DNA from: Promethearchaeota archaeon
Lineage (GTDB): Archaea > Asgardarchaeota > Odinarchaeia > Odinarchaeales > JBHLKK01
Assembly: GCA_048939465.1 (NCBI GenBank)
Contig: JBHLPL010000063.1
Location: 1 to 11,574 of the forward strand
Direction of reading: 5' to 3'
Length of the DNA stretch: 11,574 bases
Of the stretch, positions 2 through 9,637 are shown piece by piece (the first letter of the stretch is position 1; each line of letters opens with the position of its first letter). The translations under genes and the position numbers were made by a program. The notes beneath the pieces are model-generated. The model saw only the letters and a list, made by a program, of their open reading frames with translations, ran no database searches and was not told the origin of the DNA.

Positions 2-211
2 TCCGTAAGAGACATTATAAGATCGAGCTTTGAGTTCGGAGGCACAATCTACGGAGTTGGACTGCATAATTCCATGTATATGGACTTAATCCATGATTCT
101 AAGCTTCTGGATCTGATGAGATCTGTAAAGAAGAGACTCGATCCAAACGGAATCATGAACGCCGGCAAAATGATCGAATGCCGCATACCACCAATACTCA
201 GGGGGAGTTGA
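2..211 (+). CDS. FAD-linked oxidoreductase (GlcD/D-lactate dehydrogenase/VAO superfamily), C-terminal fragment, 5'-truncated by window edge
   Basis: Not in the ORF track. Frame 2 reads SVRDIIRSSFEFGGTIYGVGLHNSMYMDLIHDSKLLDLMRSVKKRLDPNGIMNAGKMIECRIPPILRGS* (TGA 209-211). The 'K..LDPNGIMNAGK' ending is the hallmark C-terminus of FAD-oxidase_C domains. Confidence 0.85.
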   Translation, partial: SVRDIIRSSFEFGGTIYGVGLHNSMYMDLIHDSKLLDLMRSVKKRLDPNGIMNAGKMIECRIPPILRGS

Positions 212-219
212 AACACAGA

Positions 220-1545
220 ATGAATGAGATCAATGGATTGACAGAAGATTTGGAAGATTTCCTGGGTTCTGAGAATGTCTTCAAGACTCAGGAAGAACTC
301 GCCTCATATTCAACTGACCCCTATACTAGACTCGAGAAGAAAGCCATTTTGGCGGTGAAGATTCATGAACCCCAGCAGTTGAACAGAATAACCTTTCTCA
401 TAAAGCGGTTTAACCGAGAGAAGAAACCCAAGATATCAATTACGCCACGTGGTTGCGGTCTTGGCGTCTCGCAAGGTACATTATCTTCAGATAACATAAT
501 TGTCGATCTGAGTGAACTGAAGGAGATTGACATAGGTGAGGATGGCGAGACTGTGAATGTTCAGTGCGGAGCCACTTTCGAACAGATATCAAGAATGTTA
601 AACGAAAATGATTTATGTTTAGGTGTAGAACCGACGACCTCACCTAAGTCCACGATAGGTGGCTTCATAGCCTCAGGCGGGTTAGGATTCTCATCCATCA
701 GGTACGGCTCTGTCTCAACTCGTATTAGAAATTTGAGGGTCTTCCTATCCACCGGCTCTATGATTGAGACCGGTATGGAGAAAGTTTTTTCCTACGGAAC
801 TGGCTATGATTTGACAAGAATATTTGTCGGATCTGAAGGAATTCTTGGGATTATTGTTTCAGCCGTTCTTGGTGCTTTTCCTAATCCCATATACACCTCT
901 AATAATTTAGCAAGAGTCGCCAGCTTCAATAGGCTTCAAGAACTTGCATCGAAAGTCGTTAAAACGAACTCAGTTTCTACGGTTCTTCTTTTAGGAGGGG
1001 AACTGTGGGGAGTAGAACGCAAGGGGATAGAGAAAACGTACCCGATGTTAGTGAGACTGGAAGGAGACAAGGATATTTTGGACTCGTCTCAGGATGTTTT
1101 GAAAAAAATTTGCGGTAAACTCGAAGGAGGAGACGACCTCTGGGAGAAACGATTCATTCATTCAGCGTTAGATAAGCTTAGCAATCCTGTTTCTATCGAC
1201 CAATTTCTTATACCAACAACAAAGCTGGCTTTGACACTCCAAAATCTGAAGGAAAACGCAGAGAAGGTCGGGATCGAGTATGCTTTTCACTCTGTACCAG
1301 TAGCAGCAAATGCGTGGCTAAGCAGTCTACTGTTTATATCAGATAGTCTTCAGTCTATTGAATCAGGAAGAAACTATCTACTAGATACGCTCAGCAGTCT
1401 TCAGGTTGTGCCTTACTGCGTTGGAACTCGCAGGATAGAATACTTCAACATGAATTTCCCTGAAGCGGCAGATCTAGTGAGGAAGATCAAATCTGTATTC
1501 GACCCCTCAGGAATAATGAATGAAGGTGTGCTATTGCCGAGGTGA
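220..1545 (+). CDS. FAD-binding oxidoreductase, GlcD/GlcE-like (PCMH-type FAD-binding domain plus FAD-oxidase_C)
   Basis: Motifs ITPRGCG, 'TIGGFIASGGLGFSSIRYGS', 'GYDLTRIFVGSEGILGII' and C-terminal 'KIKSVFDPSGIMN'. The track start at 178 overlaps the upstream gene by 34 bp. ATG 220, 8 bp after the upstream stop and preceded by GGGGAG, is more likely. Confidence 0.88.
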   Translation: MNEINGLTEDLEDFLGSENVFKTQEELASYSTDPYTRLEKKAILAVKIHEPQQLNRITFLIKRFNREKKPKISITPRGCGLGVSQGTLSSDNIIVDLSELKEIDIGEDGETVNVQCGATFEQISRMLNENDLCLGVEPTTSPKSTIGGFIASGGLGFSSIRYGSVSTRIRNLRVFLSTGSMIETGMEKVFSYGTGYDLTRIFVGSEGILGIIVSAVLGAFPNPIYTSNNLARVASFNRLQELASKVVKTNSVSTVLLLGGELWGVERKGIEKTYPMLVRLEGDKDILDSSQDVLKKICGKLEGGDDLWEKRFIHSALDKLSNPVSIDQFLIPTTKLALTLQNLKENAEKVGIEYAFHSVPVAANAWLSSLLFISDSLQSIESGRNYLLDTLSSLQVVPYCVGTRRIEYFNMNFPEAADLVRKIKSVFDPSGIMNEGVLLPR

Positions 1546-1549
1546 TATA

Positions 1550-2506
1550 TTGACACTTGAAGAAGAGCTCAAAGGTATCGCAAAGGCGGTAGACCTGAGG
1601 ATAAATGAGCTTCTTTCCACGGTGGATGATATCTTGCTCGAGCCTTCGAAATTCGCCGTTGAAGCGAGGGGTAAGAAGATTAGGCCTGCTATACTGGTTT
1701 TGGCTTGCATGGCTACCGGAGGGGATGCTGAAAACGCACTTCCATATGCTGCCTCAATTGAACTGGTTCATACAGCCTCTCTCATAATTGATGATATAAT
1801 AGATAGCGGCAGCCTTAGACGTGGAGTTTCGTCTCTTCATGAGAGGTTTGGACTGAATGCGGCCATGCTTACCGGAGTAATTCTTAGTAGCAAAGCTTTT
1901 AATGTTCTTTCGAGGAATCCTTCAATCAGCCAGACCGTAACGGAAGCAATTTGTGATATGACTGAAGGGGAGGCGCTGGACAGCACATCTAGCGTATTCA
2001 ATTGCGTCGAAGAGGACTATTTCAGAGTAGTATCCAAAAAGACAGCCTCTTTATTCAGCTGTGCTGCTAAAGTTGGCGGATTGATTGGCATGGCCTCAAA
2101 GGATGATTTGGTTTCTTTGTCGAGATACGGCCACCATGTTGGAATAGCATTTCAGATTCACGATGATATATTGGGACTCACCTCATCTGAGGGGACCTTG
2201 AGAAAATCCGTGGGTGCTGATCTCAAAAGCGGAAAGATCAATCTTCCACTTCTCCACGCTGTGACCAGTATTTCTCCGCAAGACCGCTACGAGCTCCGCA
2301 ATTTCCTCTCCGATATTTCTCCGGACAAAGAGAAGCTAAGAGAAGTTCTAGAACTCCTCAGGAGAACAGGCTCAGTTGAATATTCCAGACGAAAAGCTGA
2401 AGAGTCTGTTCAGAAATCGAAGAAACACCTTCACACTCTTGACTCTTCAAAAGCTCGTGATATGCTTGAAGGCCTGGCAGACTACATCATTGCGAGAACT
2501 AACTGA
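1550..2506 (+). CDS. trans-polyprenyl diphosphate synthase, probably long-chain type
   Basis: GKKIRP, FARM 'ELVHTASLIIDDIIDSGSLRRG', 'EGEALD', 'KKTASLF', SARM 'FQIHDDILG' and 'GADLKSGKINLP'. Start placed at TTG 1550 behind SD GAGGTGA (1539-1545, overlapping the upstream TGA) instead of track ATG 1520. Confidence 0.93.
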   Translation: MTLEEELKGIAKAVDLRINELLSTVDDILLEPSKFAVEARGKKIRPAILVLACMATGGDAENALPYAASIELVHTASLIIDDIIDSGSLRRGVSSLHERFGLNAAMLTGVILSSKAFNVLSRNPSISQTVTEAICDMTEGEALDSTSSVFNCVEEDYFRVVSKKTASLFSCAAKVGGLIGMASKDDLVSLSRYGHHVGIAFQIHDDILGLTSSEGTLRKSVGADLKSGKINLPLLHAVTSISPQDRYELRNFLSDISPDKEKLREVLELLRRTGSVEYSRRKAEESVQKSKKHLHTLDSSKARDMLEGLADYIIARTN

Positions 2507-2517
2507 GTGGGCTTGTT

Positions 2518-3651
2518 ATGCTTCAGATTCCAGAATTCAAAAAGGAACTATATATTTGTGCAAAATGTGGATACTGCAGAGAATCTTGTCCTACTCGTAG
2601 ACTCATTGGGTTCGATCGAATCTGTCCTCGTGGCCTTATCGTATCTATGAAACACTTCCTTGAAAAGCAAAAACCAATTTCAAAAGAACTCACGGAAAAT
2701 TGGTATTTCTGTACAACATGTGGCCGTTGTAAGGAAGTCTGTCCTGCGGATATTGATCTGCCCGAACTAATAAGGAGCATCAGAATAGACATGATTCAAA
2801 AGGGACTTCAAATGCCAGCGTATTTCACAACCGCTGTGAACGGTATACTGGACGATGGCAATCCTATCGGCAAGGTCAAGGAAGAGAAGACTGATCTGTT
2901 GTCAGGCAGTCTCATCACTCCAAAAAAGTCTAAGTATCTATACTTCGCAGGGTGCATGGCCTCTTACTGGCTGCCTGAAACGGCGAATGCAATCTCTGAG
3001 ATTCTCAAGTTGGCGAGCTTTGATTTTGGCACCCTTGGACTTGACGAATCATGTTGTGGTCTAGTGCCAGCTTGGAGCGGAGACATGGAGTCAACAAAAC
3101 AAGTTGTTAAGAAGATCATGAAGTCAATCGAAGAGTCTGGAGCCTCAACGGTTTTCACGTCGTGCCCAGGTTGCTATACAACCTTTAAGAATGATTATCC
3201 TAAGATTTCTGGAAATCCAGGTTTTGAAGTTCTTCATGTGCTCGAAGTCTTCAAGGAATTGATAAATCGAGGCGACTTAACCTTCAGAAAAAAGATCGAC
3301 TCAACTGTTACTTACCATGACCCATGTCATATAGGAAGATTTCATGGAATGTTCGAGACGCCGAGGGAGATTATCCAGGCAATTCCTGGTGTTAGACTGG
3401 TTGAGATGGAATATAACCGGAAAGAAGCAAACTGCTGCGGGGGTCCGCTGAGAACCGGCGGATGGATAGATCAGGCATTGACGATAGGAAAATGGAGGAT
3501 TGAAGAAGCCAAGGAAGTTGGGGCAGACTTATTGGTGACCTGCTGCCCCCAATGTGTTATAAACCTGCGACAAGCAGCTTTGGGATCAATTGAAGTCATA
3601 GACTTTCCTATTCTTCTGGCCAGAGCACTGAACCTAAAGCTGGATTATTAG
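2518..3651 (+). CDS. (Fe-S)-binding oxidoreductase subunit, GlcF/GlpC/HdrD-like (2x[4Fe-4S] plus two CCG domains)
   Basis: CAKCGYCRESCP and CTTCGRCKEVCP ferredoxin motifs. CCG-domain motifs YFAGC, ESCCG, TSCPGCY, TYHDPCHIGR, NCCGG and TCCPQC. Confidence 0.93.
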   Translation: MLQIPEFKKELYICAKCGYCRESCPTRRLIGFDRICPRGLIVSMKHFLEKQKPISKELTENWYFCTTCGRCKEVCPADIDLPELIRSIRIDMIQKGLQMPAYFTTAVNGILDDGNPIGKVKEEKTDLLSGSLITPKKSKYLYFAGCMASYWLPETANAISEILKLASFDFGTLGLDESCCGLVPAWSGDMESTKQVVKKIMKSIEESGASTVFTSCPGCYTTFKNDYPKISGNPGFEVLHVLEVFKELINRGDLTFRKKIDSTVTYHDPCHIGRFHGMFETPREIIQAIPGVRLVEMEYNRKEANCCGGPLRTGGWIDQALTIGKWRIEEAKEVGADLLVTCCPQCVINLRQAALGSIEVIDFPILLARALNLKLDY

Positions 3652-3657
3652 GAAGAT

Positions 3658-4578
3658 TTGGTGGCAGAATTGGGAATAATAGATATTCTATTTGGCCATC
3701 CAACAGAAAAGGACAAAAGACTCTTGAGACCTACCATTAAAGGCAAGATAATGGGACTTTTGTGCCTCCAACGACCCTTGATTGCATTCATGGCTGTAGT
3801 TTTGGGTGGAGTAGGTGCTGTTTTTGCATTGGGGAGATTTCCCAGCCCTTTTGAGACCTTGGTCGGAGCAATTGCTGCATATTCCCTTACCGTGTCAATT
3901 CACATTCTCAACGATATCCTTGATTCTCAGAGAGATAGGCGAAAATGGTCGGCCAGGCCCCTGCCTTCTGGCCTGATCAAAAGGAGCCACGCTTTTTCAT
4001 ATTTTGCAGTAATGGCAGCGATCGGACTTAGTCTGGCATATATCTTCTTCAATTGGCAAACTGCCGCTCTCGGTGCAGTAACGCTTACTCTAGGAGGAAT
4101 CTATACGGCTTTCCTTAGAGACAGAGTCGGATACATGACACTACCTTGGATTCCTGCCCTGATAGTAATTGGAGGATGGACAGCCTTTTCACCAACCGAT
4201 ATACTATCCAATCACGTACCGTGGTTGCTATACTTCCTGTTTGTGCTGTGGCAATCATTTCACATAGTATTGGAAGAACCATATGGCCTTGTTCCTACCA
4301 GGGCATTTGGCCTAGTATTGAGACCGAAAAGAGCAGTCTGGATTAGCATATCCCTTTCAATACTGACCTTCGCTCTGGGGATCGTAATATACCTCATCCT
4401 GCCTTTACACTGGATCTATCCTATCCTCTTAATAGGCAATTCACTTATGTTTTGGATCTCAGTAGTTCCTTTAGCAAAGGAGCCTACGTCTCCAGAATAT
4501 GCCATGAGAGGTTTTCAGGTCGCGACAATCTATAATATTATATTATGCCTAGCTTTGATGCTGGCAACAATACTATGA
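3658..4578 (+). CDS. UbiA-superfamily integral membrane prenyltransferase (atypical)
   Basis: First Asp-rich motif NDILDSQRD followed by RPLPSG, and about 8-9 hydrophobic segments. The start could be TTG 3658 or GTG 3661. Confidence 0.88.
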   Translation: MVAELGIIDILFGHPTEKDKRLLRPTIKGKIMGLLCLQRPLIAFMAVVLGGVGAVFALGRFPSPFETLVGAIAAYSLTVSIHILNDILDSQRDRRKWSARPLPSGLIKRSHAFSYFAVMAAIGLSLAYIFFNWQTAALGAVTLTLGGIYTAFLRDRVGYMTLPWIPALIVIGGWTAFSPTDILSNHVPWLLYFLFVLWQSFHIVLEEPYGLVPTRAFGLVLRPKRAVWISISLSILTFALGIVIYLILPLHWIYPILLIGNSLMFWISVVPLAKEPTSPEYAMRGFQVATIYNIILCLALMLATIL

Positions 4579-4597
4579 CGACAACAGGGAGAGAACC

Positions 4598-5575
4598 ATG
4601 AAAAAGCTAATCTTGTTCGGAGGGAAAGGGGGGACCGGAAAAACCACACTTGCTGCGGCAACCAGTACACTCATCTCTAGGGAATACAGAACGCTTGTGA
4701 TATCTTTTGATATCGCCCACAGCTTGTCTGATGTGTTTGGGATTCATATAGGGCCAGAAGTAAGGATGTTGAAGAAAAATCTATATGCACTTGAGCCTGA
4801 TACGGAAGAAGTGGCAAAAGAATCTTCAGAAACGCTCCTGAGCAACCTCAGAAATATGTTGATGTCGACAAAGGTTGACAGGATCTTTCCAGAAATAGGA
4901 GAAATGATCAAATTCTTGGACCCTAAGTTTCTACCCTTATCTATTAAGAACAGTATGTTCTTTGAATACATCCTCCAAAATGAGTATAAGTATGACGTAA
5001 TTCTTGCAGATTTTCCTCCAACCGGATCAATGTTTGCACTCTTGGAGATTCCGGAAACTCATCTAACTAAAGTCTTGGGAACAGGGGTCAAAATGAAGAA
5101 GAGACCGGTATTGTACTATCAAGTACTTGGTAGGCTTCTCTCCCCCTCAAAAATCCTAGATGGTTCTTCAGGTCTGTTTAGAGAGGGATTTCTCAAAGAA
5201 GCAGAAGCTTTGAGCCGGAGAGCTGACAGAATTCTCAAACGTTTGAGCGAGGCCTCCCTTAGATTGGTGACCCTACCAGAGAAAGCCTCAGTAGATGAAA
5301 CTTACAGATCTGCTAGACTCTCCCAACATTATGCAAATCTGGATACAATATACATAAACCGTGTGATAACGGGAGATATAGCAGAGTCTCAATTCTTAAA
5401 GAAGAAGAAGCGTCTGCAAGACAAGTATATTCGTGAACTAGGCAGAAGCTTTAAGGACAAACTGATAATTGAAGTCCCGGACCTGAGCTTTGAACCATGC
5501 GGTCTTAAGAATCTAGAAAAGCTTTCACTACTGATCTATGAGAACTCAATCATAAACGCTGTACCTTTTGGGTAG
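4598..5575 (+). CDS. ArsA/GET3 (TRC40)-family ATPase, single domain
   Basis: Deviant Walker A GGKGGTGKTT, switch I-like SFDIAHSLSDVF, switch II-like DFPPTGS, 'VTLPEKASVDET' and 'INRVI'. SD-like GGGAG upstream. Confidence 0.88.
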   Translation: MKKLILFGGKGGTGKTTLAAATSTLISREYRTLVISFDIAHSLSDVFGIHIGPEVRMLKKNLYALEPDTEEVAKESSETLLSNLRNMLMSTKVDRIFPEIGEMIKFLDPKFLPLSIKNSMFFEYILQNEYKYDVILADFPPTGSMFALLEIPETHLTKVLGTGVKMKKRPVLYYQVLGRLLSPSKILDGSSGLFREGFLKEAEALSRRADRILKRLSEASLRLVTLPEKASVDETYRSARLSQHYANLDTIYINRVITGDIAESQFLKKKKRLQDKYIRELGRSFKDKLIIEVPDLSFEPCGLKNLEKLSLLIYENSIINAVPFG

Positions 5576-5716: not shown

Positions 5717-5731
5717 GGAAAGGGTTATATA
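5717..5731 (+). promoter_or_regulatory. archaeal BRE+TATA promoter
   Basis: GGAAAGGG-TTATATA. The TATA lies about 25 nt upstream of ATG 5753, consistent with a leaderless or short-leader transcript. Confidence 0.6.
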
Positions 5732-5752: not shown

Positions 5753-6679
5753 ATGGGGGGGAGCAAAGGAATGATATCAAAATCGAAGAAATATCTCTTT
5801 CTGGCTATAATGCCTCTTATGGTGTTGTCTCTACTTAATTATCCCTTTACATCGGCAGCCCCTCAACAACTTACTCCAGGTGCATACATTACTGAGAGCT
5901 TTTCTATGAGTCTGACCTCATCGGGTGGTTCAGCTGAAATAAAAGGAACCTACAATTATACAGTCATCCAAGTATCTCCTACAAGTCTGACATATACTGT
6001 CGTTTGGGACTATACATCCATAACGAGGACCTCTGGAGGAACAACGACAGAACAAGACACTAAAACCGGAACTGTAACTGTGGATGTTAATTCACGTTTA
6101 GTCATCTCCTCAACCTGCTCCGACTTCTATCTGGAGGTGGGACATTACTGTGACCTATGGATTCCTACTGATGTAGGCATAGGTAGCGAGCTAGTAACCT
6201 TTGATGATAATCTTGTCGTAAGATCCTCAACGTTCTTTGATGGTTATGAGTGTTGGAATCTGGTGCCATCTCTTGGGCTTTCCGGCTTTGGTCAGCATGC
6301 CTATTATGAAAAAGAGACGGGCATATATCTTGGCGTTTATATGGAGGGTAATCTAGCCTCTATGGGATATCTTAAGGCTCAATCTGTGGTAACGAGTACG
6401 AATATCGATGCCTTATCCAACATAACTGGCCGGATTGGAGGATTTCCGTGGTGGATCATAATTGTCGTCGTAGTTGTCGTGATAGTGGCGGTATCCATTG
6501 TGGTGATATGGAGAAGAAGAAGGAAGGTTACCCCGCCCCCGGAAGGAGCCCCAGAAATTCCAGAAGGGGGACCAGCGGCCCTGCCACCCTCCAGGTTCTG
6601 TCCTTATTGCGGGACCGAGAATCTTCGAGAGGCGCTTTTCTGTGCGAATTGCGGCTCGAATCTAGAAGGGGCAGACTAA
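5753..6679 (+). CDS. secreted/type I membrane protein with extracellular Ser/Thr-rich beta domain, single TM helix and C-terminal double-CxxC zinc ribbon
   Basis: Signal-peptide-like N-terminus (SKSKKYLFLAIMPLMVLSLL...SAA), TM 'WWIIIVVVVVVIVAVSIVVIW' plus RRRRK stop-transfer, Pro-rich linker, and CPYCGTENLREALFCANCG. Alternative start ATG 5771. Confidence 0.8.
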   Translation: MGGSKGMISKSKKYLFLAIMPLMVLSLLNYPFTSAAPQQLTPGAYITESFSMSLTSSGGSAEIKGTYNYTVIQVSPTSLTYTVVWDYTSITRTSGGTTTEQDTKTGTVTVDVNSRLVISSTCSDFYLEVGHYCDLWIPTDVGIGSELVTFDDNLVVRSSTFFDGYECWNLVPSLGLSGFGQHAYYEKETGIYLGVYMEGNLASMGYLKAQSVVTSTNIDALSNITGRIGGFPWWIIIVVVVVVIVAVSIVVIWRRRRKVTPPPEGAPEIPEGGPAALPPSRFCPYCGTENLREALFCANCGSNLEGAD

Positions 6680-6845: not shown

Positions 6846-7112
6846 ATGTCTATGCCGTATATAATCGAGGTGACAGTAAAGAGTCAGGAGGGAAAATGTG
6901 TTTTTGGTCACGAAGTCGGGGATAGGATAGTTTTTGATGGAAAATCAGTCAAAGGTGATATCTGCTACAGCGCCTTGATGGTGATACTTCCCAAGGTTTT
7001 TGCTATGCGTTATGGAGTTGAGTTTCCGTGGGCTGAAGATAACGGCACAATCTCCAATGTCTGCCCAGATCCTAGGAATCCGGTCGTGTTTGAAATTCGT
7101 CAAGCTGAGTAA
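6846..7112 (+). CDS. TIGR04076-family-like small Cys protein
   Basis: Pattern 'GKCVFGHEVGDRIVF ... ICYSAL ... VCPDPRNPVVFEI' matches my recollection of this family. SD CAGGAG upstream. Confidence 0.7.
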   Translation: MSMPYIIEVTVKSQEGKCVFGHEVGDRIVFDGKSVKGDICYSALMVILPKVFAMRYGVEFPWAEDNGTISNVCPDPRNPVVFEIRQAE

Positions 7113-7198
7113 CGGACTACCAAAGGAATCTCGGTTCGCTATCGATGAGCGTAAATGGATAGATCTTATCAGACTGTCCCATTTCTGATCACTCCCCC

Positions 7199-7283: not shown

Positions 7284-7760
7284 ATGGTTAATGACGAATT
7301 CAAGAGGGAGTTCTCAGATACTTTCAATCGGCTTTGGCTCGTGTTTTTCGCACATCATACTCCCGATAAGTTCCATCGATGTCTGAAAGTCCAAATAAGA
7401 GGGAAGAAACTCTATTTTTGCGCTCGATGTACCGGAATACTATCTGGCACCTATACTGCCATTTTCTTATTTCCGCTGTTCCAGAGTCTTATTTCTCCGC
7501 TAATTGCTTCGATTATTCTTATTGCTTTTCCACTGCCTGTCATAGTAGACTGGCTATCACAATATGGCGGAAAGAGGGAAAGCAATAACAAAACTCGCGT
7601 AGCGAGCGGTTTTCTTTTAGGTTTTTCGATAGTGTCTCTCACCCATTCTGGAGAATATATATTAAAACTTATCACAATCTCTTTGTATGTTATTCTCGTT
7701 GTGCTTACAATCCTAATAATTAAGAATAAGGGAGGTAGTGTTATTCATGGGAGCGGGTAG
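7284..7760 (+). CDS. DUF2085-like predicted membrane protein
   Basis: 'HH..DK.HR ... FCARCTGILSG' and 'P...DWLSQY..KRESNNKTRVASGFLLG' fit the DUF2085 pattern as I recall it. Start revised to ATG 7284 (SD GAGGAG about 7269-7274, TATA at 7207). The track start is 7155. Confidence 0.72.
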   Translation: MVNDEFKREFSDTFNRLWLVFFAHHTPDKFHRCLKVQIRGKKLYFCARCTGILSGTYTAIFLFPLFQSLISPLIASIILIAFPLPVIVDWLSQYGGKRESNNKTRVASGFLLGFSIVSLTHSGEYILKLITISLYVILVVLTILIIKNKGGSVIHGSG

Positions 7761-8319
7761 AATTGCCGGAGCAAGTCTAATCGGAGTAATTGTACTGATT
7801 GTTTTAATGCCGCTTTCTCTTATGCTGGGGATCATTGGAGATATTGTGGCTTCTATCTTCGCAGGTTGTGCCGCAGGTTTCATAATGAATAATCCAGAAG
7901 GAGGAGCCTTAGCAAGCTGTTTCGTGGCACCCATCTGCGCAGGAATAGTGGCCTTTGTTGTTACGCTGGTTGGATTTGCAACTATTGGTCCGCTGTTCGG
8001 GCTATACGCAGGAGCAGCGAGTTTCTTTGATCTTCTAATCGCTTTTGTGCCGATCTGGCTCTGCTCAATGCTTGGCGGCCTAGCCGGTGGGATAATGAGT
8101 GCAGAAAAAGATGGAGAAGGACTGAGAATTGGTCCACGACTTCGAGAACGTGCAGGTCCCAGATTCGATGAGCCGGACGAAGGACCCAGGGTTCCTGCCG
8201 ATACTGAGTCAAGAATCAGAGAACCACCAGTAGATTTCGTAATATGTCCCAACTGCAATACAAAGGCCCCTTCTGACGCCATTTTTTGTCCGGAATGTGG
8301 TGCCCACATATCCGAATGA
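7747..8319 (+). CDS. multi-pass membrane protein with C-terminal zinc ribbon
   Basis: About 4 Gly-rich TM segments, a charged Pro-rich linker and CPNCNTKAPSDAIFCPECG. SD GGAGGT at 7731-7736 fits ATG 7747 better than GTG 7738. Confidence 0.75.
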   Translation: MGAGRIAGASLIGVIVLIVLMPLSLMLGIIGDIVASIFAGCAAGFIMNNPEGGALASCFVAPICAGIVAFVVTLVGFATIGPLFGLYAGAASFFDLLIAFVPIWLCSMLGGLAGGIMSAEKDGEGLRIGPRLRERAGPRFDEPDEGPRVPADTESRIREPPVDFVICPNCNTKAPSDAIFCPECGAHISE

Positions 8320-8887: not shown

Positions 8888-9637
8888 TCACTTTTCTGCA
8901 ACAGCTACTAGCCTTTTAGCCATATGATCGTAAGCGGAGCCTGAAAGATCGCCATATATTCTTACCATGCTAAAACCGCTTCTTTCCAATGCAGCTAGTA
9001 GTTCTGAAGCCGAATAGAGTCGATGTGAGACCAGGAAATCCTTCCTGTTTTCCCCCTTGATTATGATCCAGCGGCTTTCTAACCAACTCCAGTTCCTCTT
9101 GACCTTCCGTTCCTCCAGAATGATGATTCCATCCCTTTCATACCAACCCCTTTCTCGGAAAACCCGTGCTAATTCCTCTTTCCCTCTCGTTTCCAATACT
9201 AATACTCCACCCTTCTTAAGCGAGCGAAAGATATTGACCAAGACCTGAATATCGTCTGACGGGTTTTTGAAATAGCCAAAAGTCGTGAACATGCTTATCG
9301 CACCATCAAAAGCATCAGGTCTGCAGAAACTTCTTATGTCATCTTCTACGAAGTCAACAATCAGGTCCTCAGACTTCGCTTGCTTTCTTGCTTTTTCCAA
9401 GTAGGCAGCCGTTCTGTCGACTCCGGTAACGCGAAAGCTTCTTCTGGCCAATTCCAATGAGTGCCTTCCAACGCCGCAACCTAAATCGAGAATCGCAGCT
9501 CCGGGCCTAACCTTCATAAAACTTAATACTTGATCAGTCTCGGTTGGTGTGGCAGCCCAGCGCTGTTCATCGAACATTATGGGTTCTGCCCATTCCCAAA
9601 ACTCATCATCTTCGTACCATTCTCTCTCTCTGCTCAT
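8888..9637 (-). CDS. class I SAM-dependent methyltransferase
   Basis: Motif I ILDLGCGVGRHS, 'VTGVDRT', 'FDGAISMFTTFGYF' and 'LKKGGVLVLE'. SD GGAGG upstream of ATG 9637. Confidence 0.92.
   Translation of the reverse strand: MSREREWYEDDEFWEWAEPIMFDEQRWAATPTETDQVLSFMKVRPGAAILDLGCGVGRHSLELARRSFRVTGVDRTAAYLEKARKQAKSEDLIVDFVEDDIRSFCRPDAFDGAISMFTTFGYFKNPSDDIQVLVNIFRSLKKGGVLVLETRGKEELARVFRERGWYERDGIIILEERKVKRNWSWLESRWIIIKGENRKDFLVSHRLYSASELLAALERSGFSMVRIYGDLSGSAYDHMAKRLVAVAEK

What the first reader, a model, noticed from the sequence alone, without database searches (positions are those of the whole stretch)
2..5575. Candidate undescribed archaeal operon coupling a GlcDEF-like flavin/Fe-S oxidoreductase with synthesis and trafficking of a prenylated membrane cofactor
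Seen in the sequence: six co-oriented genes separated by only 8, 4, 11, 6 and 19 bp (FAD oxidoreductase x2, polyprenyl-PP synthase, CCG Fe-S protein, UbiA prenyltransferase, ArsA/Get3 ATPase). The prenyl synthase sits between the flavoprotein genes and the Fe-S gene, so the redox and isoprenoid modules are interleaved rather than just adjacent. Established: GlcD/GlcE plus GlcF form a membrane-associated dehydrogenase that passes electrons to quinones, and a polyprenyl synthase plus UbiA is the minimal kit for prenylating a head group. Inference: the operon either builds its own lipid-soluble electron carrier (a quinone-, methanophenazine- or prenyl-heme-like molecule) for the dehydrogenase, or uses the flavin/Fe-S enzymes to tailor a prenylated product. 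I do not recognise this gene combination as a described pathway.
Basis: partly seen in the sequence, partly recalled or inferred. Interest (0 to 1): 0.8.

Follow-up and report, generated by a model that had tools for sequence, protein, structure and literature searches.

The report
Flavin/Fe-S genes tied to prenyl-cofactor genes
An uncultured Asgard archaeon carries a tight six-gene operon that joins an unusual flavin and iron-sulfur oxidoreductase to its own isoprenoid-chain synthase and a rare membrane prenyltransferase, and because the same gene families recur together in other lineages, it probably makes and uses an undescribed lipid-anchored redox cofactor.

Summary
Six co-oriented genes sit 8, 4, 11, 6 and 19 bp apart: FAD oxidase 1 (cut by the contig start), FAD oxidase 2, polyprenyl-PP synthase (IDS), an HdrD/GlcF-like CCG Fe-S protein, a UbiA prenyltransferase and an ArsA/Get3 ATPase.

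- **Conservation.** Congener contigs carry the whole cluster between TATA-like elements. The core FAD1-FAD2-IDS-CCG, with the synthase interleaved, also occurs in two other Asgard families of another class.
- **UbiA.** It belongs to a rare, unassigned clade (about 40 representatives in 1.8 billion proteins). The clade has W-Q-x-x-H, as in heme O synthases, in place of the second Asp-rich motif.
- **Co-occurrence.** Strong clade UbiA matches appeared only in genomes that carry the core: all 4 carriers of 301 sampled, and 3 of the 4 carriers among 151.
- **Recurring neighbours.** In unrelated contigs the clade again sits beside an FAD oxidase, a CCG protein, a polyprenyl synthase, multiheme or b-type cytochromes and UbiE-type methyltransferases.
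- **Not housekeeping lipid genes.** The genome holds a separate DGGGPS-like UbiA and two other synthases.

The product is unknown. Heme is unlikely, because no ALAD and no c-type cytochromes were found.

The parts
2..211 (+). 3' end of FAD1, a VAO/GlcD-fold FAD-linked oxidase. It is 458 aa when joined to contig C110:2645-3824. Its active site is non-canonical: GxGGSM...M and TI-YGVGLHN replace GHxGDGNxH and SAEHGxG.
220..1545 (+). FAD2, a second and more degenerate FAD-linked oxidase. The FAD_binding_4 domain is kept, and only the last ~35 residues match FAD-oxidase_C. It is probably a GlcE-like non-catalytic partner. An alternative start lies at 178.
1550..2506 (+). A dedicated trans-polyprenyl diphosphate synthase (IDS). 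FARM is DDIID with Ala-Ser at positions -5/-4, and SARM is DDILG. An alternative ATG start lies at 1520.
2518..3651 (+). HdrD/GlcF/GlpC-type iron-sulfur subunit with two ferredoxin-type CxxCxxCxxxCP motifs and two complete CCG domains.
3658..4578 (+). UbiA-superfamily prenyltransferase of a rare, unassigned clade. NDxxDxxxD, Y149, R154, Q199, H202 and I203 are invariant. W-Q-x-x-H-I stands in place of the second Asp-rich motif.
4598..5575 (+). ArsA/Get3-family P-loop ATPase (GGKGGTGKTT). It lies 19 bp after the UbiA gene and is preceded by GGGAGAG. Linkage to the module was seen only in this genus.
5725..5731 (+). TATA-like TTATATA 22 bp upstream of the next gene (ATG at 5753). It marks the probable 3' boundary of the operon, within a 177-bp spacer.
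   Evidence: read from the sequence. Promoter function is inferred.
8888..9637 (-). Class I SAM methyltransferase with weak UbiE/MenG-type matches. It is conserved 3.3 kb downstream in congeners. It is only a possible accessory gene and is not shown to belong to the module.
   Evidence: It is not the best own-genome match to the clade-linked UbiE genes.

Best explanation
The cluster is a self-contained module for a polyprenylated, membrane-bound redox cofactor and the oxidoreductase that works with it. The synthase extends an isoprenoid diphosphate, probably beyond C20. The heme-O-synthase-like UbiA enzyme attaches that chain to a small head group that is still unidentified and is not heme in this genus. 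FAD1 and FAD2 form a VAO-fold flavoprotein pair. Together with the HdrD-like CCG protein they form a peripheral membrane enzyme with the architecture of GlcDEF, YdiJ or GlpABC. This enzyme passes electrons between a soluble substrate (not a classical D-2-hydroxy acid) and the prenylated carrier through the CCG clusters.

Shown: gene content, gene order, conservation of the core, genome-level co-occurrence, motif states and recurrent neighbourhoods.
Inferred: chain length, that the UbiA enzyme is catalytically active, the nature of the acceptor, the direction of electron flow, and co-transcription.
For: Gaps of 4-19 bp, with TATA-like elements only outside the cluster. The six-gene cluster is intact in congeners. 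FAD1-FAD2-IDS-CCG is kept in families f30 and f31 of another class, at 29-49% identity, whereas the usual Asgard arrangement is only an FAD-CCG pair. Clade UbiA at E<1e-85 was found only in core-bearing genomes. In the phylum sample of 301 genomes, those were G000, G001, G002 and G296. In the class of G296, those were 3 of the 4 core carriers and 0 of 147 others. Independent contexts of the clade: GcvH, FAD oxidase, CCG, 264-aa protein, UbiA, multiheme cytochrome c, polyprenyl synthase; CCG, degenerate FAD2-like protein, UbiA, 11-heme cytochrome; cytochrome, IDS, UbiA, where that IDS best matches the window IDS; CCG, UbiA and an FAD1 orthologue at 42% identity; Psr-like Fe-S protein, NrfD, molybdopterin oxidoreductase, cytochrome b, UbiA, radical SAM, UbiE methyltransferase; SdhC/D, UbiA, cytochrome b, UbiE methyltransferase. 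The CCG protein has all cluster-binding cysteines. The genome has its own DGGGPS-like UbiA and two other synthases. The cluster IDSs carry Ala/Gly-Ser before FARM and group with octaprenyl-type synthases, not with archaeal Phe-type GGPP synthases.
Against: No head-group pathway was identified: MqnA was not found, and the only UbiD fits the archaeal mevalonate route. No quinone-dependent complex was recognised in this genome. Its two complex-I-like modules keep the NiFe cysteine motifs and so are membrane hydrogenases. The UbiA clade lacks the canonical second Asp-rich motif, so its activity is unproven. In families f30 and f31 the UbiA gene is not adjacent to the core (130 kb away in G303). 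Kin are not independent: the Asgard evidence amounts to about three lineages. The genome is 91% complete. No expression or chemical data exist.
Confidence: 0.45

Rival explanations
1. This is a purely biosynthetic gene cluster. FAD1/FAD2/CCG are tailoring enzymes that oxidise, reduce or condense a polyprenyl-bearing intermediate made by IDS, with UbiA acting later. They are not a respiratory dehydrogenase. The end product is a modified isoprenoid lipid or cofactor.
For: The synthase is embedded between the flavoprotein and Fe-S genes in three families, as expected if all act on one pathway. FAD1 has lost the 2-hydroxy-acid catalytic site. VAO-fold enzymes do act on lipid-linked substrates, such as DprE1 and alkyl-DHAP synthase (established knowledge; weak matches). 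In G303 a CrtI-like amine oxidase and a GGR-like flavoprotein lie within 6 kb. A GGR-like gene sits next to a clade UbiA.
Against: No VAO/CCG enzyme is known as an isoprenoid-tailoring enzyme. Neighbourhoods of the clade are dominated by electron-transfer proteins (cytochromes, NrfD, SdhC/D, Hdr-like proteins) rather than lipid enzymes.
Confidence: 0.28
2. This is chance or loosely selected juxtaposition. An ordinary D-lactate/glycolate-type dehydrogenase happens to sit beside isoprenoid lipid genes and a housekeeping Get3, with no shared function.
For: FAD-CCG pairs are very abundant in Asgard genomes, with up to dozens of candidates per genome. ArsA linkage is confined to the genus. Polyprenyl synthases and UbiA enzymes are needed for archaeal lipids in any case.
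Against: The interleaved order is conserved at 29-49% protein identity across two classes. Core and UbiA clade co-occur in the same genomes. The same families reassemble around the clade in unrelated contigs. Lipid paralogues exist elsewhere in the genome. FAD1 lacks the lactate/glycolate catalytic residues.
Confidence: 0.1
3. The UbiA enzyme is a heme prenyltransferase (a heme O synthase analogue) that uses a longer chain supplied by the adjacent synthase.
For: W-Q-x-x-H aligns with the WQxPHF motif of bona fide heme O synthases. The profile comparison ranks heme O synthase first (99.1%, 9e-19). All 14 clade members tested match the cyoE_ctaB model. Clade neighbours include multiheme cytochromes, cytochrome b, CcmE and an AhbD/NirJ2-like radical SAM enzyme.
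Against: ALAD was not found in any of the three genomes of the genus, which are 91, 78 and 82% complete. No ORF in this genome has two or more CxxCH motifs. Scores to the heme O synthase models are far below their cut-offs (54 against 210 bits), and DGGGPS-type models score about equally. The acidic (D/E)(D/E)Y...PMLP segment of heme O synthases is not conserved in the clade.
Confidence: 0.07
4. This is a polyprenyl-phosphate-linked sugar pathway like mycobacterial DPPR synthase (a UbiA enzyme) plus DprE1 (an FAD oxidase).
For: There are weak matches of FAD2 to DprE1 (5e-8, FAD domain only) and of the UbiA to decaprenyl-phosphate phosphoribosyltransferase (3e-4; profile against 8j8j 2e-8, N-terminal part only). 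Other windows of this scan hold such modules.
Against: The matches are much weaker than those to DGGGPS or heme O synthase models. The FAD proteins carry the FAD-oxidase_C end, not a DprE1-type C-terminal domain. No glycosyltransferase, phosphatase or PRPP gene lies nearby. A CCG Fe-S subunit and cytochromes have no place in that pathway.
Confidence: 0.04

Closest known systems
GlcDEF glycolate oxidase, the D-lactate/D-2-hydroxyglutarate dehydrogenases (LDHD, D2HGDH) and E. coli YdiJ
   Same: Two VAO-fold FAD proteins plus a subunit with two [4Fe-4S] motifs and two CCG domains. The best solved matches of FAD1 are LDHD (2e-37), glycolate oxidase and LctD. The best solved match of the CCG protein is a 1042-aa 'iron-sulfur-binding reductase' chain.
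   Different: FAD1 lacks the second His and the Glu-His of the metal and catalytic site, and in this genome even the first His is Tyr. The C-terminal domain of FAD2 is degenerate. A polyprenyl synthase gene is inserted between the flavoprotein and Fe-S genes.
Heme O synthase (CtaB/CyoE/COX10) branch of the UbiA superfamily
   Same: NxxxDxxxD, the same spacing of W-Q-x-x-H, a full-length alignment to TIGR01473, and the best profile-profile match among the four subfamilies tested.
   Different: 54 bits against a cut-off of 210. The acidic motif after WQxPHF is not conserved. The host genus shows no tetrapyrrole synthesis and no cytochromes. No heme-copper oxidase context was seen.
Quinone prenyltransferases with their polyprenyl synthases (MenA/MqnP/UbiA with IspB-type synthases; UbiE/MenG methylation)
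   Same: A long-chain-type synthase plus a UbiA-family enzyme. Clade members lie beside UbiE-type methyltransferases, SdhC/D, NrfD-type complexes and cytochrome b in Chloroflexota.
   Different: Profile similarity to MqnP is lower (1.5e-14) and to MenA much lower (1.6e-5) than to heme O synthase. No Men or Mqn head-group genes were found here. The second Asp-rich motif is absent.
HdrDE with methanophenazine in Methanosarcinales
   Same: An HdrD-type CCG protein that works with a polyprenylated, non-quinone membrane carrier whose biosynthesis is still unidentified (PMC6315138).
   Different: No HdrE-like cytochrome b is present here. No clade UbiA was found in a Methanohalophilus genome. This is an analogy of function only.
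Archaeal DGGGP synthase with GGPP synthase (membrane lipid route)
   Same: Same two superfamilies. DGGGPS is the best solved match of the UbiA (6m31, 1.8e-6).
   Different: The genome has a much better DGGGPS-like paralogue (176 against 67 bits on PRK12884) and two further synthases. The window UbiA lacks the DxxDxxxD second motif that the paralogue keeps.

Membership tests
GlcD/LDHD/D2HGDH-type D-2-hydroxy-acid dehydrogenases | FAD_binding_4 plus FAD-oxidase_C fold | tested here: met
   Congener FAD1 (the window holds only its last 69 aa): PF01565 3e-38 and PF02913 2e-18. FAD2: PF01565 1e-23 and only the tail of PF02913.
GlcD/LDHD/D2HGDH-type D-2-hydroxy-acid dehydrogenases | Metal and catalytic site His...His (GHxGDGNxH) and Glu-His (GEHGxG) | tested here: not met
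   FAD1 has GHGGSMLVM (GYGGSM in this genome) and TI-YGVGLHN. Nine generic Asgard GlcD-like proteins in the same alignment keep both motifs.
GlcD/LDHD/D2HGDH-type D-2-hydroxy-acid dehydrogenases | Score above the curated glcD/glcE equivalog cut-offs | tested here: not met
   114.5 bits against 567.9 (glcD) and 72.3 against 284 (glcE) for FAD2.
HdrD/GlcF/GlpC CCG iron-sulfur proteins | Two CxxCxxCxxxCP motifs and two CCG domains with all cysteines | tested here: met
   PF02754 in two stretches (2e-35) and Fer4_8. The cysteines are invariant in six orthologues.
trans-Isoprenyl diphosphate synthases | FARM DDxxD and SARM DDxx(D/G) | tested here: met
   DDIID and DDILG. DDxxG occurs in 24 of the 110 SARMs read among the query, its relatives and paralogues. 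PF00348 6e-61.
Short-chain archaeal GGPP synthase (type I) | Bulky aromatic residue at position -5 before FARM | tested here: not met
   Ala-Ser at positions -5/-4. The Phe-type archaeal sequences form separate clades. Product length itself cannot be tested here.
UbiA superfamily | First motif NDxxDxxxD with a downstream RP(L/I)PSG-like segment | tested here: met
   D86, D89, D93 and R100 are invariant in 18 clade members.
UbiA superfamily | Second Asp-rich motif (DxxxD) in loop 6-7 | tested here: not met
   It is replaced by W-Q-x-x-H-I, with Q199, H202 and I203 invariant. The genome's DGGGPS-like paralogue keeps MEDVEGD.
Heme O synthase (TIGR01473) | Score above cut-off, WQxPHF, and the acidic (D/E)(D/E)Y...PMLP segment | tested here: inconclusive
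   W-Q-x-x-H is present and aligned. The score is 54 against 210 bits, and the acidic segment is not conserved in the clade.
MenA / MqnP quinone prenyltransferases | Profile similarity and curated model score | tested here: not met
   hhalign gives MenA 1.6e-5 and MqnP 1.5e-14. NCBIfam MqnP matches only 2 of 15 aligned sequences at about 4e-9.
ArsA/Get3/TRC40 ATPases | P-loop and curated subfamily score | tested here: met
   TIGR00345 143 bits against a cut-off of 135. GGKGGTGKTT is present. A tail-anchor targeting function was not tested.
DPPR synthase / DprE1 lipid-linked pentose pathway | DPPRS-type UbiA, DprE1-type oxidase, and glycosyltransferase or phosphatase neighbours | tested here: not met
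   Only weak partial matches. No such neighbours appear in the window or in congeners.

The most novel reading that the evidence does not exclude
Some Asgard archaea, together with scattered Chloroflexota and bacteria rich in multiheme cytochromes, make a so far unknown polyprenylated redox carrier. It is built by a heme-O-synthase-like UbiA clade and a dedicated long-chain synthase. It is reduced or matured by a non-canonical VAO-flavoprotein/HdrD-type complex. This would give membrane-level electron transfer to archaea thought to have neither quinones nor cytochromes.
Probability: 0.3. Interest if true: 0.85.

Novelty: new variant of a known kind. Interest (0 to 1): 0.62.

Why it matters
Asgard archaea are the closest known prokaryotic relatives of eukaryotes, and how they conserve energy is debated. 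Most reconstructions give the anaerobic lineages no lipophilic electron carrier. A conserved module that makes and uses a prenylated membrane cofactor would add one and would make it directly testable by co-expression plus LC-MS. It would also assign a function to a rare UbiA clade and to the many non-canonical FAD-CCG pairs of these genomes. The same UbiA clade sits inside respiratory gene clusters of Dehalococcoidales and other Chloroflexota and beside 10- to 11-heme cytochromes. The chemistry may therefore matter for anaerobic respiration and extracellular electron transfer more widely.

Tried and rejected
- **The search for related loci with an FAD2 alignment.** It returned no orthologues, so it says nothing about distribution.
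- **Word-indexed protein searches with UbiA and FAD2.** These found only near relatives. The exhaustive HMMER search was needed to find the clade.
- **Look-alike stretches in earlier scan notes.** None were found.
- **Complex prediction, CCG protein with UbiA as partner.** The job returned no verdict, so it counts neither for nor against binding.
- **Link to methanophenazine.** No clade member was found among the four UbiA genes of a Methanohalophilus genome, so no homology-based link exists.
- **Weaker UbiA matches in Asgard genus g12 (1e-31 to 1e-38).** The one copy inspected (G016) is a canonical enzyme with an intact second Asp-rich motif and is not a clade member.
- **Complex-I-like genes as evidence for a quinone.** Rejected, because both large subunits keep the NiFe-binding CxxC pairs.
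- **SARM DDxxG as a sign of an inactive synthase.** Rejected, because it is common among the related synthases compared.
- **Heme prenylation and DPPR/DprE1-type readings.** Both were considered and are kept as low-probability rivals.
- **Literature searches.** None described this gene combination. The library is incomplete, so this is weak evidence of novelty.

Full report
**What is in the window.**

The window is an entire 11.6-kb contig (C119) of a 1.96-Mb, 91%-complete MAG. NCBI names for near-identical proteins are 'Candidatus Hodarchaeota' and 'Promethearchaeota archaeon', so this is an Asgard archaeon. In the genome library its class holds only seven genomes in two genera.

Six genes lie on the + strand:

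| Coordinates | Gene |
|---|---|
| 2-211 | FAD1, C-terminal 69 aa only |
| 220-1545 | FAD2 |
| 1550-2506 | polyprenyl-PP synthase (IDS) |
| 2518-3651 | CCG Fe-S protein |
| 3658-4578 | UbiA prenyltransferase |
| 4598-5575 | ArsA/Get3 ATPase |

Pfam and NCBIfam confirm all six families. The missing 5' part of gene 1 lies on contig C110, which overlaps the window start by 14 bp in frame. A TATA-like element lies about 50 bp upstream of FAD1. Another (TTATATA, 5725-5731) precedes the next gene after a 177-bp spacer.

**Conservation.**

- Congener contigs carry the intact cluster in this order: Band7, a spacer of about 150 bp, FAD1-FAD2-IDS-CCG-UbiA-ArsA, a spacer of about 200 bp, then a Zn-ribbon membrane protein.
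- Among 301 Asgard genomes, orthologue-level matches to the CCG protein were found only in G000 and G002 (G001 has an assembly gap at this gene) and in G296 (49% identity). All other matches were 40% or lower.
- G296 has FAD1-FAD2-IDS-CCG in the same order.
- In the class of G296 (151 genomes) the CCG orthologue occurs in G296, G301, G303 and G304, from two families. Where the contig extends upstream, as in G303 and G304, the synthase is again interleaved. The G303 FAD1 is 48% identical to the FAD1 of this genus.
- Twenty other Asgard loci with the next-best CCG matches hold only an FAD-CCG pair, without a synthase.

The conserved unit is therefore the four-gene core. UbiA and ArsA are attached to it only in this genus.

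**The individual proteins.**

*FAD1* aligns end to end with mitochondrial D-lactate dehydrogenase (2e-37), glycolate oxidase and LctD. However, GHxGDGNxH is replaced by GHGGSMLVM (GYGGSM in this genome), and SAEHGxG is replaced by TI-YGVGLHN. Nine generic Asgard GlcD-like proteins keep both motifs. FAD1 is thus not a classical D-2-hydroxy-acid dehydrogenase.

*FAD2* keeps the FAD-binding domain but has a degenerate C-terminal domain.

*The CCG protein* has two ferredoxin motifs and two complete CCG domains. All cysteines are invariant among six orthologues.

*The synthase* has intact FARM and SARM motifs, with Ala-Ser at positions -5/-4.
- Its nearest relatives outside the genus (38% identity or less) are mostly labelled octaprenyl-PP synthase.
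- In a maximum-likelihood tree the cluster-linked synthases fall with that Ala-Ser group.
- They stand apart from archaeal Phe-type GGPP synthases and are far from the genome's two other synthases.
- A product longer than C20 is inferred, not shown.

*The UbiA protein* belongs to a small clade.
- There are about 40 representatives with E<1e-10 among 1.8 billion proteins.
- The first motif NDxxDxxxD is invariant, and W-Q-x-x-H-I replaces the second Asp-rich motif.
- This aligns with WQxPHF of verified heme O synthases.
- Profile comparison ranks heme O synthase (9e-19) above MqnP (1.5e-14), DGGGPS and MenA. These reference profiles were small, of one to four sequences.
- Curated models of both heme O synthase and DGGGPS match every clade member far below their cut-offs.

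**Not the housekeeping lipid genes.**

The genome has exactly two UbiA genes. The other, on C138, scores 176 bits on the archaeal prenyltransferase/DGGGPS models, against 67 bits for the window gene, and keeps the second Asp-rich motif. Two further polyprenyl synthases lie on C84 and C18.

**Link between the UbiA clade and the core.**

With a profile of the clade, strong matches (E<1e-100) in the 301-genome sample occur only in the three genomes of this genus and in G296. Weaker matches in genus g12 include a canonical enzyme and are not clade members. In the class of G296 the clade occurs in G296, G303 and G304 and in none of the 147 genomes without the core. These counts represent about three independent lineages.

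Outside Asgard, neighbourhoods of clade members repeat the same families:

| Clade member (locus) | Neighbourhood |
|---|---|
| P0008 | GcvH, FAD oxidase, CCG, 264-aa protein, UbiA, multiheme cytochrome c, polyprenyl synthase |
| P0009 (L150) | CCG, a degenerate FAD2-like protein (hhalign 64%), UbiA, 11-heme cytochrome |
| P0011 (L151) | 10-heme cytochrome, IDS, small membrane protein, UbiA; this IDS best matches the window IDS |
| P0006 (L033) | CCG, UbiA, an FAD1 orthologue at 42% identity |
| Dehalococcoidales (L152) | Psr-like complex with NrfD, cytochrome b, UbiA, AhbD/NirJ2-like radical SAM, UbiE methyltransferase |
| Chloroflexota (L153) | SdhC/D, UbiA, cytochrome b, UbiE methyltransferase, SdhA/B |
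| G296 (L171), Asgard | HdrA-MvhD, HdrC, HdrB, then a 266-aa membrane protein and UbiA |
| G303 (L172), Asgard | a CCG-FAD pair 2.5 kb from the UbiA gene |

**What the product is not likely to be.**

ALAD was not found in any of the three genomes of the genus. No ORF here has two or more CxxCH motifs. A heme acceptor is therefore unlikely in this host. MqnA was not found. The single UbiD fits the archaeal mevalonate route. The two complex-I-like modules keep the NiFe cysteine pairs and are membrane-bound hydrogenases.

**Interpretation.**

The best-supported reading is a module that both makes a polyprenylated membrane cofactor (IDS plus UbiA) and contains its redox partner (FAD1/FAD2/CCG). 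The partner has the architecture of GlcDEF or YdiJ but a different, unknown substrate (confidence 0.45). The main rival is that the flavin/Fe-S proteins are biosynthetic tailoring enzymes of the same pathway (0.28). Chance juxtaposition (0.10), heme prenylation (0.07) and a DPPR/DprE1-type lipid-sugar route (0.04) are less likely.

ArsA/Get3 is probably co-transcribed here, but nothing outside the genus ties it to the module. A second paralogue exists on C138.

Literature searches found no description of this combination. Methanophenazine biosynthesis, the nearest functional analogy, was reported as unidentified in 2018.

Noticed in passing
own genome contig C109 (L148:709-12207): Two tandem complex-I-like modules (fused NuoC/D, NuoB, NuoH, NuoI, an antiporter-like subunit). 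Their large subunits keep the RxCGxC and DPCxxC NiFe motifs, so they are group-4 membrane hydrogenases. An HdrB-like CCG gene precedes them.
   Followed up: partly
window 7112-7155, compared with L139:15615-16403: Congeners carry a 236-262-aa ferredoxin-like gene on the opposite strand between the 87-aa ORF and the DUF2085 gene. This genome has no room for it, so the gene was lost or gained within the genus.
   Followed up: no
window 5753-6679 and 7738-8319: Two membrane proteins end in a zinc ribbon. The first has a weak Loki-CTERM sorting-domain match around its transmembrane segment. Their function is unknown, and they are conserved downstream of the cluster in congeners.
   Followed up: no
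L125, L137 (Asgard genomes G022, G274): Other Asgard FAD-CCG pairs also lack the GEHG-type catalytic motif (GGVP-YWAGL, GG-GPYTIGL). A whole set of non-canonical VAO/CCG enzymes of unknown substrate therefore exists in this phylum. L137 holds three FAD-CCG pairs in tandem.
   Followed up: partly
own genome C110:2645-3824 plus window 2-211: The FAD1 of this genome has Tyr (GILGYGGSM) where congeners have His (GILGHGGSM). Even the one remaining His of the classical metal site is therefore not conserved within the genus.
   Followed up: no
own genome C33 (L154:2733-5743): An AhbD/NirJ2-like radical SAM/SPASM protein (268 bits, below cut-offs) lies next to a LarA-family nickel-dependent 2-hydroxy-acid racemase, in a genome where no ALAD was found. 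Its substrate is probably not a tetrapyrrole.
   Followed up: no
L152:4882-12850 (Dehalococcoidales MAG): A Psr/Nrf-like molybdoenzyme operon runs straight into cytochrome b, the clade UbiA, an AhbD-like radical SAM enzyme and a UbiE methyltransferase. This could be a compact, undescribed carrier-biosynthesis set in Dehalococcoidales.
   Followed up: partly
L150:2344-3792, L151:618-1973: Membrane-anchored cytochromes with 10-11 CxxCH motifs are encoded next to the clade UbiA. A third, 500-aa multiheme cytochrome beside the UbiA on P0008's contigs (no DNA held) has a weak NapC/NirT-type N-terminal match.
   Followed up: no
L035:7418-8674, L143:2082-3344, L144:1219-2496: In family f30 the four-gene core is followed on the same strand by an acyl-CoA dehydrogenase gene. 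In G296 an unknown Cys-rich 283-aa protein lies in between.
   Followed up: no
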